In this document: positions 9,860 through 16,695 of the stretch, piece after piece
Layout: every line of letters starts with the position of its first letter
How positions within the stretch are numbered: position 1 is the first letter of the stretch
NCBI RefSeq assembly: GCF_009914755.1
Contig: NC_060932.1
DNA from: the human T2T-CHM13v2.0 reference genome, Homo sapiens
DNA length: 64,000 bases
Direction: 5' to 3' (one strand)
Translations under genes and position numbers: made by a program
The notes under the pieces: model-generated
The model's input: the letters and a program-made list of their open reading frames with translations, nothing else
Databases searched by the model: none
What the model was told of the DNA's origin: nothing

Positions 9860-10165
9860 TCTCTCCCCAACCCATTTATCTGCCTAGATCTCTTTCAATA
9901 TTCAAAACTTCTCTTAACTGTTACTACTCCAAGAAAGCCTCCCTGGTCCTCTTTGAGTAGGGCAGAACTTCCTTTCAGACCCTCCCATTTTCCTTCAATG
10001 GACTTGCTTCAGTTTTTGATTTTTATGTAGTAGCTATATTTAGTAATTAATGTTCCTTTTTGTTTCCCCAAGATTACAGTCCATGGGAGGAAAAAGACTG
10101 CATATCTCTAGTACAGCACTATCTCCCCAGCACCTAGCACAGTTCCAGGAGTAGAAGCAGTTTCA
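9860..10165 (+). mobile_element. L2 3' fragment
   Basis: tatctccccagcacctagcacagttccagg is typical of the L2 3' end. Confidence 0.6.
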
Positions 10166-10170
10166 TATAG

Positions 10171-10463
<293 letters not shown>

Positions 10464-10719
10464 TCAATTAATATGTATGCTTAGACACATTTTCTTTCAA
10501 GCAATAGAAAATTGTGTCTCACAGCAAATTTATTGCTTTTATTTTTTAAATTAAAAAGATTAAATCACTGCAGGTAAGTAAGTAGAAAGATCAATGATAG
10601 ACCCAGTCACAAAATATTTATAAAGCCACATATTTTGAAGTAATGTTTATTCTATGTATTTATCTTTAAAGATAACATTTATGTATGAGGGATATTAATA
10701 AGAGTTATTTCAAGAAGAT

Positions 10720-11290
10720 TTATTTATTCAGCCACTCCGTCATTCAACATTTCTTTGGTAACTTATAGTGTCAGGCTTAATATTGGGCTGCTAAAAATAC
10801 TGAAATTAATAGACTTGCTTCCCATATTTGGGAGCTCACAGTTTGCTTTTGCCATGGAAGAGTAAATTAATCATAATAATAGCAGTTGATGAGGGTACTA
10901 TAGGTCCTATACTATAGGTACTATAAGTCCTATAGATAAGGGAGGGCAGAGATGGAACATGGACGAGGGTCCCCCTCCATCATTCAGTCTAGAGGTAGAA
11001 ATGAAGGTCAGCTATTTCCATGAACAGCTGATGCTTAAGAAGGGTCTTGAAACACAAAGGAGAGTTGTTATGGTTGAGGAGGGAGGGGTGTTCTAGGCAT
11101 GATGAAAGGCAAGGAGGATGAGGAAAACTTGGAAAATCCTATGATCCATAAGCTTGTTGGTATGAATTAATTCCAAGGAGATGTGTGGTGTGAAGAGAGA
11201 AGAGAATAGAAAGGGAACTAAATCTGACAGAAATCTCTGTGCCAACATGATGATGATCTTTAATGTGTGTGTGGCCATTGGTCTGGTGCT
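10720..11290 (-). mobile_element. L2 fragment (appears to run across the 11157 duplication boundary)
   Basis: cattcaacatttctttgg...ggagctcacagttt...gtgttctaggca...ggccattgg is collinear with antisense L2; the distal part is weak. Confidence 0.55.
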
Positions 11291-11960
11291 TGCTCGATTC
11301 CATCGGTTTCTTTCAGCATGCAGTAACAGAATACAGCATAACTCTATGTAGACACTAATGTCTGGTGAGCAAAAGCATAAGAACTTAGTTCCATTTAATG
11401 AGCACCTAAAATGTGGACATTCAGTCATAATCCTCACAACCACTGCAAGGTGGCTGGTATTTATCCTATTTTACCAAAATAGGAACTAAGATTCGGGTAA
11501 GTTACACAAGATTCTTGAGGTCACACAGTGGGTTAGGGACAGGGCAAGAAAGAAATCTCAGGTTCATGGTAAATCCAAAACTCATGCTCCCTTTTCTTCT
11601 ACTCAGTGGTGATGAGTCAGCATCACACTAGGGATGGTTCTGATTACTCTAGGCTAAATCTGAATACATATTTGCTTTATTTAATCAGCCTACACAGAGG
11701 TTTCTTTTCAGCACAAAGAAGGGCCATTTGAAGCCATCCAAAAATAATTCCTTTTTTCTTTTGAGAATTAAGTTATTGGATCACCCTAATAAAAGCAAAG
11801 CAACAAAACAGAAAGATGTTCAGATTTTTCTCTTTTAAAACTAGGATCAAACAACATAAATAATCCATGGAAGATGCAGGATCCAACTAACCTAATGTCT
11901 TCCAAGTTGATCTTCTCTCTTTCTAAACTGGTTACTTTCTCACATTAATTATATTTGGCA
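11157..11960 (+). repeat. Arm A of an ~800-bp inverted duplication (partner 13848-14663); contains a MIR at ~11390-11590
   Basis: Manual alignment to the reverse complement of 13848-14663, ~95% identical. Confidence 0.97.
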
Positions 11961-12354
11961 CTGCCTCCCTCAATGCATCCATTGGCAGTGCATCCACTGA
12001 TGGCACTTAAAATGAAGAGCCTCATGAGGTCAGGGATGTGGGATAATGATTTGAACTATATTCAACTTTGGGAGTTCAAACTTTTTAAAATCTGCCAACC
12101 TCACAATTGGGATTAAAAGGCCAGAAGATCTATCATAAAAGAAAGTGAGCCTGCTAGAACTTTTATCAATTCACCAACAGGGCCTGAAGACTGGATGGAA
12201 GCAAAGGGGAGGTGTGATACAGGGAATAGTATTAACAGCTAGCACTTGAATATAGGTTGATCAGCTCTCCTAGTGGGATTTGTAAGTAGTTAAAGAACAA
12301 GGTATGATCATTAATTTTACATGTCAACTTGGCTGGGCCATGGGGTGCCCAGAT
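11961..12354 (+). repeat. Segment B, direct duplicate of 14713-15433 without the L1 insertion; ends ~50 bp into an MLT2 LTR
   Basis: Manual alignment, ~94% identical. Confidence 0.95.
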
Positions 12355-12415
12355 ACACTGAGGGAGGCAGAATGTGGGCTCAGTCACCACCAGACTCACT
12401 TGTTGGTGATATCAA
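12352..12415 (-). repeat. Segment C, 64-bp inverted duplicate of 14668-14731
   Basis: gatacactgagggaggcagaatgtgggctc...gatatcaa matches the reverse complement of ttgatatgacc...ctcaatgtatc. Confidence 0.9.
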
Positions 12416-12559
12416 ACTTTGGATTCTGACCCAGCCAGGATCCCTGTTGTATGAAATCTTAAAGTCATAGAGTTTGAGTGCTAAAGGGATCTTACAGGAC
12501 TGATGTCTTCTGTTCCCTTAACCAATGACACATCACAGTCTTAATTAGAAGCTGAATTG

Positions 12560-12790
12560 CAACAGCCACAAATACTGAGTTACAAAGTCCTTACTGTGTG
12601 CCAGATGCTGTGTTCAGTACTCAGAAGATTTATCTTATGAGGTAAGTTCTATGAGGTATATGTAATTAAAATCCTATTTTTAATGATTTTAAGATGTCAA
12701 GAAAGGTTAAAATAATTGCCTAAAATCACTTATCCAAAAATGAAGAAAAATTTTGGTTTGCCCTCTTGCCAAATCCAAAGAAATCTCTGT
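12560..12790 (-). mobile_element. MIR fragment
   Basis: cttactgtgtgccagatgctgtg...aaaggttaaaataattgcctaaaatcac. Confidence 0.55.
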
Positions 12791-13105
12791 ATTCTATTGA
12801 ATCTGGATATAAAGAATTTCCTGTAGTGTTTGACACACGGTAAGCTCTTTTAATAAAAGATTACCATCTCATATAAAGCTAATTGTATCTGTAAATTCCT
12901 GAAGAAAAGTGGCTTTTCTTTTTCTGCTTTTATTCTTATTATTGCCTCCTAAATACCAGGAGGTCAAGCGCAAATACTTGCCCAGTTGATGAGATTTTGT
13001 TGCGACTCACCTCCGAAATGGTCAAAAGTACATATTTCATGTTGCCTTTGTGTATTAAGTAGTCAATTCTGGAGTGGATAACAGCTATGATATGTTCTTA
13101 CTAAC

Positions 13106-13409
13106 TTTTTTCTTTTTTTTTTTTTTTTGAGACGGAGTTTCACTCTTGATGCCCAGGCTGGAGTGCAATGGCACGATCTCGGCTCACCTCAACTTCCGCC
13201 TCCTAGTTCAAGCGATTCTCCTGCCTCAGCCTCCCGAGTAGCTGGGATTACAGGCATGCACCACCACTCCAGGCTAATTTTGTATTTTTAGTAGAGACGG
13301 GGTTTCTCCATGTTGGTCAGGCTGGTCTCGAAATCCCGACCTCAGGTGATCCGCCCGCCTCGGCCTCCCAAACTGCTGGGATTACAGGCGTGAGCCACCT
13401 CGCCCAGCC
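13106..13409 (-). mobile_element. AluSp, full length
   Basis: Sp diagnostics (ttctccatgttggtcagg, cccgacctcagg); TSD GTTCTTACTAA(C/T)TT. Confidence 0.95.
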
Positions 13410-13847
13410 GTTCTTACTAATTTAATCAGTAGGAAACAAGAGAAAAACCTTGCTCAGGTTTGCAAGATTTGATACCCACTAAGTTTTCCAGAACTCAGAG
13501 TTGAGGTGCAATAAAGGAGTAACTAAAACAAAACTTAAAGAGTAAAATAAATTACTGACTGAATATTTAGGGAGTCTGAGATAGTTAATTTAGCAAACTT
13601 CCCCAACTGTGATGTAAGTCTTGCTCACAAAGATTAAATAAATATGTTCTCACGTTATGTTTTGCATCAGTTTGCTGAACTTGCACAGAAGTTAATAACA
13701 AAAATAAAATCAAAAGTGACAACAAGGCAATCTAAGCAATGTTCCATGGGTTTCTTTGCCCTGTTGGGGAGCCTTCTTGCATAGGAGATATAAAGTCTTT
13801 TCCTAGCCATATGTACTACAAGTTTTGTCCTTGGCCTTTGTTATATA

Positions 13848-14663
13848 TGCCAAATAGAATTAATGTGAGAAAGTGAACCAGTTTAGAAAGAGAGAAAGTC
13901 AGCTTGGAAGATATTAGGTTAGTTGGATCCTGCATCTTCCATGGATTATTTATGTTGTTTGATCCTAGTTTTAAAAGAGAAAAATCTGAACATCTTTCTG
14001 TTTTGTTGCTTTGCTTTTATTAGGGTGATCCAATAACTTAATTCTGAAGAGGAAAAAGGAACTATTTTTGGATGTTTTCAAATGGTACTTCTTTGTGCTG
14101 AAAAGAAACCTCTGTGTAGGCTGATTAAATAAAGCAAATATGTATTCAGATTTAGCCTAGAGTAATCAGAACCATCCCTAGTGTGATGCTGACTCATCAC
14201 CACTGAGTAGAAGAAAAGGGAGCATGAGTTTTGGATTTATTATGAACCTGAGATTTCTTTCTTCCCTTGTCCCTAACCCACTGTGTGACCTTAAGAATCT
14301 TGTGTAACTTACCTGAATCTTAGTTCCTATTTTGGTAAAATAGAATAAATACCAGTCACCTTGCAATGGTTGTGAGGATTATGACTGAATGCCCACATTT
14401 TAGGTGCTCATTAAATGGAACTAAGTTCTTATGCTTTTGCTCACCAGACACTAGCGTCTACATAGAGTTATGCTATTGCTATACTATGCAGTATTCTGTT
14501 ACTGCATGCTGGAAGAAACCAATGGAACTGAGCAAGCACCAGACCAATGGCCACATACACATTGAAGATCATCATCATACTGGCACAGAGATTTCTGTCA
14601 GATCTAGTTCCCTTTCTATTCTCTCTTCACACCACACATTTCCTTGGAATTAATTCATACCAA
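13848..14663 (-). repeat. Arm A' of the inverted duplication
   Basis: Reverse complement of 11157-11960; explains the twin ORFs starting MVVRIMTECPHF on opposite strands. Confidence 0.97.
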
Positions 14664-15051
14664 TTACTTGATATGACCAAAAAGTGAGTCTGATGGTGAC
14701 AGAGCCCACATTCTGCCTCCCTCAATGTATCCATGGGCAGTGCATCCACTGATGGGCACTTAAGATGAAGAGCCTCATGAGGCCAGGGATGTGGGATAAT
14801 GACTTGAACTATATTCAGTTTTGGGAGTTCAAACTTTTTTAAATCTGCCAACCTCACAATTGGGACTAAAAGGCCAGAAGATCTATCATAAAAGAAACTG
14901 AGCCTGCTAGAACTTTATCAATTCACCAACAGGGCCTGAAGACTGGTTGGGAGCAAAGGGGAGGTGTGATATAGGGAATAGTATAACAGCTAGCACCTGA
15001 ATATGGGTTGATCAGCTCTCCTAGTGGTGTTTGTAAGTAGTTAAAGAACAA

Positions 15052-15369
15052 CATGGATGAAACTGGAAACCATCATTCTCAGCAAACTATCGCAAGGACA
15101 AAAAACCAAACACTGCATGTTCTCACTCATAGGTGGGAATTGAAAAATGAGAATACATGGACACAGGAAGGGGAACATCACACACCGGGGACTGTGGTGG
15201 GGTGGGGGGAGGGGGGAGGGAGAGCATTAGGAGATATACCTAATGCTAAATGACGAGTTAATGGGTGCAGCACACCAACATGGAACACATATACATATGT
15301 AACAAACCTGCACGTTGTGCACATGCACCCTAAAACTTAAAGTATAATAATAATAAAATTTTTAAAAAA
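15052..15369 (+). mobile_element. 5'-truncated L1PA3/4-like 3' end
   Basis: End of ORF2, 3' UTR G-rich tract and A-tail; TSD AAAGAACAA at 15043-15051 and 15370-15378 at a TT/AAAG site. Confidence 0.95.
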
Positions 15370-15380
15370 AAAGAACAAGG

Positions 15381-15838
15381 TGTGATAGTTAATTTTATAT
15401 GTCAACTTGGCTGGGCCGTGGGATGCCCAGATTAAACATTATTTCTGGGAGTGTCTGCAAGGGTGTTTTGAATGATATTAGCATTTAAGTTGGTGGATTC
15501 AGTAATGTAAATTGCCCTCTTCAATGCAGATGGGCATCATCCAATCCCTTGAGGAAGTGAATAGAACAAAAGAACTGCTTCACCTCAGTCATCTCATCTC
15601 ACATTCTGCTGACATCTGACTGGAATTTATATACCATCAGCTCTCCTGGCCCTCAACCTTCAGTCTCAGACTGAAATACACCCGTAGCTTTCCTAGATCT
15701 CTAGCTAGCAGACAGCAAATCATTGGATTTCTCACCATCCATAATCATATAAGCTAATTCCTCTCAATAAAATATGTGTGTGTATATATATATAATCTCC
15801 TATTGGTTCTGCTTCTCTGGAGAGCCCTGCCTGATACA
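15381..15838 (+). mobile_element. MLT2-family (ERVL) solo LTR
   Basis: tgtgatagttaattttatatgtcaacttggctgggcc...ctgataca; 5-bp TSD CAAGG/CAGGG. Confidence 0.9.
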
Positions 15839-16335
15839 CAGGGTATGCCACTAGATACACTAATACTTGGGTAATGCACCCACCATGGGGATAACAGAGG
15901 GTGGGAACTTGTCCCTTCCCACTCTGCAGGGAGGCTGATTGGGAAATGAGAAGCAGAGAGGCCAAAGTGAGAAATAGAAATCTACCTCTGCTTAGGTGGA
16001 AATTTCTGCAGTTGATGCTGTCACCAGCTAAGTGAGCTCCTCAGGACAGAGGATGGCAGAGACACTACATCAGTATCTGAGAAGTAAAGGCAATGCTGAG
16101 CCCCAGAGCCCAGCAAATAGCAGGAGCACATGCTTCACATTCTGATACCAGAATAACCTACATCTGGTTAGAAGATAAATACCACCTTTTTACCTTTGTG
16201 GAAAACAAAATTAAATCATTTTAGCTAAATACTAACCATAGTAATCACAGCTATACAGCTATAGTTTATTGAGCATTAAACAATATTGACTTTATTGTGC
16301 TATGTGGCAAATACCACGTCAGACACTCCATGTAA

Positions 16336-16695
<360 letters not shown>

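What the first reader, a model, noticed from the sequence alone, without database searches (positions are those of the whole stretch)
11157..15433. Complex duplication-inversion-duplication explained by three template switches
Seen: order X-A-B-C-Y-A'-C'-B'-Z, where A'(13848-14663)=rc of A(11157-11960), B(11961-12354)=direct copy of B'(14713-15433), C(12352-12415)=rc of C'(14668-14731), and Y=12416-13847 is single-copy. The MLT2 LTR is cut off in B but complete in B'-Z, and an L2 appears to cross X-A, so both outer junctions look ancestral. Inference: the ancestor was X-A-rc(Y)-C'-B'-Z. A polymerase jumped forward at 11960, reversed strand at ~12354 (imperfect microhomology TGCCCA[TG]GAT), copied C-Y-A' backwards and returned at ~14663 (microhomology CCAA). 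This is a FoSTeS/MMBIR-type event; ~5-6% divergence between copies suggests it is of simian age.
Basis: partly seen in the sequence, partly recalled or inferred. Interest (0 to 1): 0.8.

Follow-up and report, generated by a model that had tools for sequence, protein, structure and literature searches.

The report
Old inversion flanked by inverted duplications
A 4.3-kb stretch of a human chromosome 8 gene desert carries the readable scars of one ancient copying accident that inverted 1.4 kb, duplicated both of its flanks and pasted in a 394-base neighbouring piece; it is a known kind of rearrangement with no sign of function.

Summary
The layout X-A-B-C-Y-A'-C'-B'-Z is real at the stated coordinates. 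The copies differ by 63 of 1252 aligned bases (5.0%), evenly across segments. Apart from the LTR stub, A, B, C, Y and X have no other copy in the T2T genome, so these are local duplicates, not transposon copies.

B is the derived copy. It stops about 52 nt into a roughly 460-nt LTR that is complete at B'-Z. An L1 3' end with a 9-nt target duplication entered B' afterwards.

The ancestor needing fewest new junctions is X-A-rc(Y)-C'-B'-Z, with three. That makes this a fixed "dupINVdup" carrying a 394-nt templated insertion at one junction, and the direct orientation of B favours replicative template switching.

- Junction A|B is blunt.
- Junction B|C shares GAT.
- Junction A'|C' carries a 4-nt filler, not a clean CCAA overlap.
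- The age fits the ape stem or Old World monkey split, not the base of simians.
- L2 continuity across X|A and all outgroup tests could not be run.

This is a new example of a known kind, of modest interest.

The parts
10450..11156 (.). X: single-copy left flank. The boundary X|A lies at 11156|11157.
   Evidence: A genome search with 10450-11500 finds only itself and A' from 11157 onward. Similarity to rc(A') stops at 11157.
11157..11960 (+). A: 804-nt left arm, inferred to be the original copy.
   Evidence: 799 bases align to rc(A') with 35 substitutions and 3 indels totalling 22 nt. There is no other genomic copy.
11960..11961 (.). Junction J1 (A|B): a blunt join with 0 nt of microhomology.
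   Evidence: Three-way comparison of the junction with both parental templates.
11961..12354 (+). B: a 394-nt direct copy of 14713-15051 plus 15370-15432, inserted at the A/C junction. Its last ~52 nt (12303-12354) are the first bases of an LTR, cut off at the junction.
   Evidence: All 38 matches elsewhere in the genome fall in query 1124-1204, and 34 of them end at 1197-1201, i.e. within about two bases of window 12355.
12352..12354 (.). Junction J2 (B|C): GAT is shared by both templates (3-nt microhomology), inside an imperfect TGCCCA[TG]GAT match.
12352..12415 (-). C: a 64-nt inverted copy of 14668-14731.
   Evidence: (I6, 92%). After the shared GAT, 5 of 61 bases differ.
12416..13847 (-). 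Y: a 1432-nt single-copy spacer, inferred to be inverted relative to the ancestor. It contains an Alu at about 13099-13411.
   Evidence: No second copy in the genome. The Alu matches many window Alus.
13848..14663 (-). A': an 816-nt inverted copy of A.
14664..14667 (.). Junction J3 (A'|C'): the 4-nt filler TTAC, found in neither template.
14668..14731 (+). C': the original of C. It runs without a break into B' and overlaps it by 19 nt (14713-14731).
14713..15432 (+). B': the original of B, now interrupted by the L1 piece.
15052..15369 (+). L1 3' end with a poly-A tail, inserted after the rearrangement. Its target-site duplication AAAGAACAA lies at 15043-15051 and 15370-15378.
   Evidence: It is absent from B, which has one AAAGAACAA at 12292-12300. 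39 of 39 scored non-self genome copies are 95-97% identical. It differs at 9 of 294 positions from the majority state of its closest copies. The name L1 is my recognition of the sequence.
15381..15838 (+). Solo LTR of a high-copy family (reader: MLT2, name not checked). It is complete here, with possible 5-nt flanking duplications CAAGG (15376-15380) and CAGGG (15839-15843).
   Evidence: 2557 first-look candidates. 39 of 48 non-self matched pieces run across 15433|15434, and family matches span query 10-12 to 469-470. The flanking repeat is read.

Best explanation
This is a neutral, fixed scar of one complex rearrangement in a gene desert. [quoted passage not shown]

The ancestor was X-A-rc(Y)-C'-B'-Z. 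During replication or break-induced repair the growing strand took these steps:
1. It copied X-A up to 11960.
2. It jumped about 1.5 kb ahead to the position now at 14713 and copied 394 nt, reaching about 52 nt into an LTR.
3. It switched to the opposite strand about 375 nt back, at 14731, using the shared GAT. It then copied backwards through C', Y and A to 11157.
4. It returned to 14668, leaving a 4-nt filler, and went on through C'-B'-Z.

All the switches lie within about 2.7 kb. The event happened roughly 20-30 million years ago, on the ape stem or near the split from Old World monkeys. An L1 3' end later entered B'. Nothing suggests a function.

Shown here: the layout, the uniqueness of the segments, the truncation of B, the junction sequences, the even divergence, and the later L1 insertion. 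Inferred: the polarity (by parsimony), that it was a single event, the replicative mechanism, and the date.
For: - Layout and significance.
- Uniqueness: A, C, Y, X and the non-LTR part of B have no other copy in the 3.1-Gb T2T assembly at the tool's sensitivity. One search gave 2 of 2 matches local, one search gave 4 of 4, one search gave 2 of 2, and one search gave 2 of 2. In one search, 5 of 43 matches are local and the other 38 cover only the LTR stub.
- B is derived. The LTR family aligns across 15433|15434 in 39 of 48 non-self pieces. In B every family match stops at the B|C junction. The complete LTR has near-matching 5-nt flanks.
- Single event. The divergences of 35 of 799, 23 of 392 and 5 of 61 are homogeneous (chi-square p = 0.28).
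- Polarity. Of the four possible choices of original copies, only (A, C') needs three new junctions. (A', C') needs four, and the two choices with C as original need five. Under (A', C') it would also be a coincidence that the A' and C' source pieces abut within 4 nt (14663 and 14668) in a 1.6-kb source.
- Replicative mechanism. There is copy-number gain. B is in direct orientation between two inverted joins. The templates are all local. There is no long homology at any breakpoint. The junction signatures are 0 nt, 3 nt and a 4-nt insertion.
- Literature. CNV-flanked inversions, the group that includes dupINVdup, are attributed to MMBIR/FoSTeS or to synchronous repair of several breaks in PMC5338099 (passages read).
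- Timing. The L1 piece, absent from B, differs from the majority state of its closest copies at 9 of 294 positions (3.1%). That is close to the per-lineage 2.5% since the duplication.
Against: - No outgroup genome could be consulted, so the single-copy ancestor and the orientation of Y are not observed.
A genome search found nothing, and 10 stop-to-stop frames gave no Pfam match above cut-off.
- Only one of the three junctions has clear microhomology, and the CCAA reading of J3 fails. The junctions alone do not separate template switching from end joining.
- Substitutions are clustered. The longest identical run is 152 nt (P = 0.007), so gene conversion between the arms may have lowered the divergence and made the event look younger than it is.
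- Right after the event the two arms were identical 800-nt inverted repeats 1.9 kb apart. Later flipping of the spacer by homologous recombination cannot be excluded, so the inversion may not belong to the original event.
Confidence: 0.68

Rival explanations
1. Same ancestor and the same three new junctions, but the original event did not invert Y. It inserted rc(B'1-394) and rc(A) between two tandem copies of the 64-nt C' stretch, giving X-A-rc(Y)-C*-rc(B)-A'-TTAC-C'-B'-Z. Homologous recombination between the then identical 800-nt inverted arms A and A' later flipped the 1.9-kb spacer into today's order.
For: Flipping the spacer between A and A' leaves all three junction sequences unchanged (my reasoning on the layout). 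The arms are 804 and 816 nt, still about 95.6% identical at aligned bases, with identical runs of up to 152 nt. Such arms are the classic substrate for inversion by non-allelic homologous recombination (established knowledge).
Against: It needs one more step than the direct model. There is no direct evidence for a flip. It predicts the same outgroup state, so it cannot be separated with present data.
Confidence: 0.13
2. The ancestor was X-Y-A'-TTAC-C'-B'-Z. A 1259-nt mosaic (rc(A'), then part of B', then rc(C')) copied from the stretch 1.4 kb downstream was inserted between X and Y, with no inversion.
For: The three source pieces tile one contiguous stretch, 13848-15432. Multi-segment templated insertions are known products of replicative repair (established knowledge). 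Nothing measured here proves that X|A is ancestral.
Against: It needs four new junctions against three. It must treat as chance that the inverted A' piece ends at 14663 and the inverted C' piece starts at 14668, yet the two were placed on opposite sides of B. Alternatively it must invoke a circular intermediate opened exactly there. I estimate roughly 9 chances in 1600 for two independent breakpoints to fall that close in the source.
Confidence: 0.08
3. Breakage rather than replication. [quoted passage not shown] This is the model proposed for Drosophila inversions with inverted duplications. B would have been added at one joint separately or by a repair polymerase.
For: This model gives exactly A-rc(C')-Y-rc(A)-C'. 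Duplications of 46 bp to about 1.9 kb were reported at the breakpoints of 17 of 29 fixed Drosophila inversions (PMC1885836; abstract, Fig. 2 legend and passages read). One blunt junction and one with a 4-nt filler look like end joining.
Against: It cannot by itself produce B, a 394-nt direct copy that starts 19 nt before break d and lies between the inverted joints. An 804-nt unwound overhang is long, a difficulty the authors themselves note.
Confidence: 0.08
4. The similarities are independent insertions of transposable-element copies, or an assembly artefact.
For: Part of B is an LTR start, and Alu and L1 pieces lie in the region.
Against: Apart from the LTR stub, A, B and C occur nowhere else in the genome. 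The copies are 5% diverged and carry indels and a private L1 insertion, which a collapsed or doubled assembly would not give.
Confidence: 0.01

Closest known systems
dupINVdup / paired-duplication inversion, a complex structural-variant subclass of human population and clinical catalogues (Collins et al. 2017, PMC5338099, passages read; Brand et al. 2015, seen only as a reference there)
   Same: The reference order P-Q-R becomes P-rc(R)-rc(Q)-rc(P)-R: an inverted middle with both borders duplicated in inverted orientation. There is one head-to-head and one tail-to-tail junction and no long homology at the breakpoints.
   Different: This case is small (0.8 kb and 64 nt of duplication, 1.4 kb inverted), whereas the catalogued variants are mostly kilobases to megabases. 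It is apparently fixed and about 5% diverged rather than polymorphic or de novo. It also carries an extra 394-nt direct templated insertion at the head-to-head junction, so it has three junctions, not two.
FoSTeS / MMBIR replicative template switching (Lee, Carvalho and Lupski 2007 and Hastings et al. 2009, recalled; Zhang et al. 2009, seen in the reference list of PMC5338099)
   Same: Several junctions lie in cis, with copy gain, mixed orientations, short-range local templates, and a 0-3 nt microhomology or small insertion at each junction.
   Different: Only one of the three junctions shows clear microhomology. The event is an old evolutionary fixation read from one genome, not a patient rearrangement with a parental reference.
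Inverted duplications at fixed Drosophila inversion breakpoints, staggered-break model (Ranz et al. 2007, PMC1885836, passages read)
   Same: A fixed inversion whose two ends carry inverted duplicates of non-repetitive sequence, in a similar size range (46 bp to about 1.9 kb).
   Different: Those inversions are chromosomal in scale. The model has no place for the direct insertion B.
Short-range template-switch mutations and microinversions in great apes (PMC8755829, abstract and passages read; Walker et al. 2021, as cited in it)
   Same: The strand-switch-and-return logic leaves an inverted copy of nearby sequence.
   Different: Those events span about 10-33 nt and depend on pre-existing short inverted repeats. 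This one is 100 times larger, creates its own inverted repeats and adds a third switch.

Membership tests
dupINVdup (inversion flanked by inverted duplications) | Both borders of the inverted segment are present twice, with the second copy inverted and on the far side of the inverted segment. | tested here: met
   A at 11157-11960 and rc(A) at 13848-14663. C' at 14668-14731 and rc(C') at 12352-12415. Y lies between them.
dupINVdup (inversion flanked by inverted duplications) | The middle segment is single-copy and inverted relative to the unrearranged allele. | tested here: inconclusive
   Single copy is shown. Inversion relative to an ancestor rests on parsimony, because no outgroup or alternative allele is available.
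dupINVdup (inversion flanked by inverted duplications) | Exactly two novel junctions. | tested here: not met
   There are three novel junctions, because the 394-nt piece B sits at the head-to-head joint. I therefore file it as a variant of the class with a templated insertion.
FoSTeS/MMBIR product | Two or more junctions in cis joining nearby segments in mixed orientation, with copy gain. | tested here: met
   Three junctions lie within 2.7 kb of template. A, C' and part of B' are gained.
FoSTeS/MMBIR product | Microhomology (about 2-15 nt) or short insertions at the junctions. | tested here: inconclusive
   J1 has 0 nt. J2 has 3 nt (GAT) within an 11-nt imperfect match. J3 has the 4-nt insertion TTAC. 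About 5% later divergence blurs the reading.
FoSTeS/MMBIR product | Error-prone synthesis leaves extra point mutations near the junctions. | tested here: inconclusive
   There are 9 adjacent double differences against 3.1 expected (P = 0.0027). A control of L1 copies gave 1 against 0.65 expected. The changes cannot be dated to the event without other species.
Non-allelic homologous recombination between pre-existing repeats | Breakpoints lie inside long, highly similar repeats shared by the two partners. | tested here: not met
   No breakpoint (11157, 11960, 14668, 14713, 14731, 15432) lies in a repeat shared with its partner. The Alus at 10165-10442, 13099-13411 and 16348-16687 are away from all of them.
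Independent transposable-element copies | The segments belong to a family with further copies in the genome. | tested here: not met
   Only the last ~52 nt of B (the LTR start) has other copies.

The most novel reading that the evidence does not exclude
The differences between the copies are not ordinary drift alone. The excess of adjacent double substitutions (9 among 63 differing sites, including GC>AA and GG>AA) and their clustering would be a 20-30-million-year-old fossil of error-prone polymerase synthesis during the template-switch event itself. That would make this locus a natural record of the mutational cost of replicative repair in the germ line.
Probability: 0.12. Interest if true: 0.55.

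Novelty: new member of a known kind. Interest (0 to 1): 0.3.

Why it matters
It is a clean, fully legible old example of a rearrangement class that is mostly known from living patients and population surveys. All three junctions, both template sets and a later datable insertion can still be read after about 5% divergence. That shows such complex events do get fixed in primate genomes.

It gives a small test case for three questions:
- Does the inverted-repeat product later toggle by recombination?
- Does gene conversion keep the arms alike?
- Is repair synthesis mutagenic?

It lies in the gene desert distal to MYC/PVT1 on 8q24 (location from the hub's note). No gene is annotated in the window, and the nearest functional element, a RefSeq enhancer, lies about 19 kb away, so no phenotypic consequence is expected.

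Tried and rejected
- I looked for other copies of old repeats that might run across the junctions. nhmmer of 400-nt tiles against the rest of the window found only Alu and L1 matches, plus a few chance-level hits with E between 0.03 and 0.7.
- Whole-genome DNA searches of X+A, C+Y-left, Y-right+A' and A'-C'-B' found only the local copies. So neither the L2 claim nor any repeat-continuity test of X|A, C|Y, Y|A' or A'|C' could be made.
- A Pfam scan of 10 of the 18 stop-to-stop frames listed for 10450-12000 looked for LINE protein remnants. It gave none. The single hit was to a bacterial membrane family at 16.4 bits, below its 23.5-bit cut-off, which I read as chance.
- I tried to polarise the six B/B' differences inside the LTR stub against 14 family copies. 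About 3 look derived in B, 1 looks derived in B', and 2 are unclear. That is too few to say anything.
- I tested for uneven divergence along A by halves. It was not significant (Fisher p = 0.41).
- A literature search for LINC00976 with 'inversion' returned 0 papers. I made no search by coordinates, so I make no claim that the locus is undescribed.
- Two literature calls failed on term syntax. The first was re-asked in other words and the second was dropped.

Full report
**1.

- A (11157-11960) is the reverse complement of A' (13848-14663): 93.06% over 821 columns including 22 gap columns, E = 0.
- B (11961-12354) is a direct copy of B' in two blocks. 11961-12300 matches 14713-15051 at 94.1% (E = 3.5e-147). 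12292-12354 matches 15370-15432 at 90.5% (E = 1.6e-18).
- C (12352-12415) is the reverse complement of C' (14668-14731): 92% over 64 nt. BLAST stretches this to 72 columns, E = 3.1e-21.

Base-by-base alignments with flanks show that similarity starts and stops sharply at the stated positions.

Counting substitutions only:
- A differs from A' at 35 of 799 aligned bases.
- B differs from B' at 23 of 392.
- C differs from C' at 5 of 61.
- Together that is 63 of 1252, or 5.0% (standard error 0.6%). There is no heterogeneity between segments (chi-square p = 0.28).

**2. These are local duplicates, not transposon copies**

The T2T assembly that holds the window could be searched.
- A query of A+B+C gave 43 matches. 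Five are the local copies. The other 38 all lie within query 1124-1204 and cover only the last ~52 nt of B.
- Queries of X plus the left of A, A'-C'-B', C plus the left of Y and the right of Y plus A' found nothing but the local copies.
- Inside the window, sensitive tile searches found only Alu and L1 relatives.

**3. Which copy of B is original**

The end of B' and the start of Z belong to a high-copy LTR. There were 2557 first-look candidates, and family matches span query 10-12 to 469-470, which I read as window 15381-15838.
- 39 of the 48 non-self matched pieces run straight across 15433|15434, so B'-Z is an intact old junction.
- The LTR starts TG and ends CA. It is flanked by CAAGG and CAGGG, a plausible 5-nt target duplication matching at 4 of 5 positions (my reading).
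- In B the same family matches stop at the B|C junction.

The family name MLT2 could not be checked.

**4. A later insertion**

B' is longer than B because of a 318-nt element (15052-15369). It ends in a poly-A tract and is bracketed by AAAGAACAA, which is present once in B. I recognise it as an L1 3' end.
- Its 39 scored non-self genomic relatives are 95-97% identical.
- It differs from the majority state of its closest copies at 9 of 294 positions, or 3.1%.
- Each duplicate lineage has accumulated about 2.5% since the event (half of 5.0%).

The L1 therefore entered soon after the rearrangement, within error. This fits its absence from B.

**5. Polarity**

No outgroup genome is on hand, so I enumerated the possible ancestors.
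- B' is fixed as the original copy.
- If A and C' are original, the ancestor is X-A-rc(Y)-C'-B'-Z. Only A|B, B|C and A'|C' are new junctions.
- If A' and C' are original, the model is insertion of A-B-C between X and Y. Four junctions are new. The near abutment of the A' and C' source pieces (14663 and 14668), which nevertheless ended up on opposite sides of B, is left to chance.
- Either choice with C as original needs five new junctions and two rounds of copying, because C spans the C'|B' boundary.

**6. Junctions**

- J1 (A|B, 11960|11961) is blunt. The A template continues TATATAAC and the B' template is preceded by CCCACATT, so no base is shared.
- J3 (A'|C') reads ...CATACCAA-TTAC-TTGATATG.... 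The A template would continue CAAGCTT. The Y-C' template reads ...ATCCAAAGT-TTGATATC. Priming at CCAA would therefore give AGT, not TTAC.
- J3 thus has a 4-nt filler or a scrambled patch, and the claimed CCAA microhomology does not explain it.

**7. Mechanism**

The core pattern P-rc(R)-rc(Q)-rc(P)-R is the dupINVdup class of complex structural variants. CNV-flanked inversions, the group it belongs to, are attributed either to MMBIR/FoSTeS or to synchronous repair of several breaks (PMC5338099, passages read).

The staggered-break model for Drosophila inversions gives the same core (PMC1885836). It cannot place a 394-nt direct copy between the inverted joints when that copy starts 19 nt before one breakpoint. 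Serial template switching within about 2.7 kb does this naturally.

The junction signatures alone do not prove it.

Homologous recombination could have flipped the spacer at any later time without changing any junction. The first product may therefore have been a non-inverting insertion. Both versions predict the same outgroup state.

**8. Age**

A paralogue divergence of 5.0% (Jukes-Cantor about 5.2%; 95% range roughly 3.8-6.2%) lies between my recalled genome-wide values for human-orangutan (about 3.4%) and human-macaque (about 6.5%). It is far below human-marmoset (about 10-11%).

That points to the ape stem or the time of the Old World monkey split, about 20-30 million years ago. 'Simian age' is too broad.

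Substitutions are clustered, with a longest identical run of 152 nt (P = 0.007). Gene conversion may therefore have erased some divergence, and the date is a minimum.

**9. Seen in passing**

Nine of the differences are adjacent pairs, against 3.1 expected under random placement (P = 0.0027). A control of private differences in 30 L1 3' ends gave 1 against 0.65 expected among 85 differences.
- The control is small and not fully comparable.
- Multi-nucleotide mutations are a normal part of divergence.
- Error-prone synthesis around structural-variant breakpoints has been proposed (PMC4937565, listing and start of abstract only).
- This locus could test that idea once ape sequences are aligned.

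**10. Verdict**

The structure is a new example of a known kind of rearrangement. It lies in a stretch with no annotated gene, and no function is indicated.

Noticed in passing
window 11157-12415 against 13848-15432: Differences between the duplicate copies are clustered. There are 9 adjacent double substitutions where 3.1 are expected (P = 0.0027), including AC>GT twice in the same CAAC context, plus GC>AA and GG>AA. The longest identical run is 152 nt (11570-11721, P = 0.007). Possible causes are ordinary multi-nucleotide mutation, gene-conversion tracts, or error-prone synthesis at the event.
   Followed up: partly
window 15052-15369: A young L1 3' end with a poly-A tail and the 9-nt target duplication AAAGAACAA was inserted 11 nt upstream of the LTR start, counting from the break at 15369|15370. 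It is 95-97% identical to many genomic copies.
   Followed up: yes
window 11335 / 14474-14489: A 16-nt indel lies between A and A'. A' has the extra bases, in a stretch where GCATA recurs. This looks like slippage or deletion between short direct repeats. A 5-nt indel lies at about 11196.
   Followed up: no
window 10165-10442 and 16348-16687: Two Alu elements in opposite orientation (85% complementary over 264 nt) bracket the whole rearranged region at a distance of about 6 kb. They are not at any breakpoint.
   Followed up: no
window 11941-11946 and 14707-14712: The hexamer CACATT lies 15-20 nt before junction J1 in A and also directly before the start of B' in its template. It may have helped bring the templates together, or it may be chance. 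I estimate roughly a 1 in 10 chance of such a match within 20 nt on each side.
   Followed up: no
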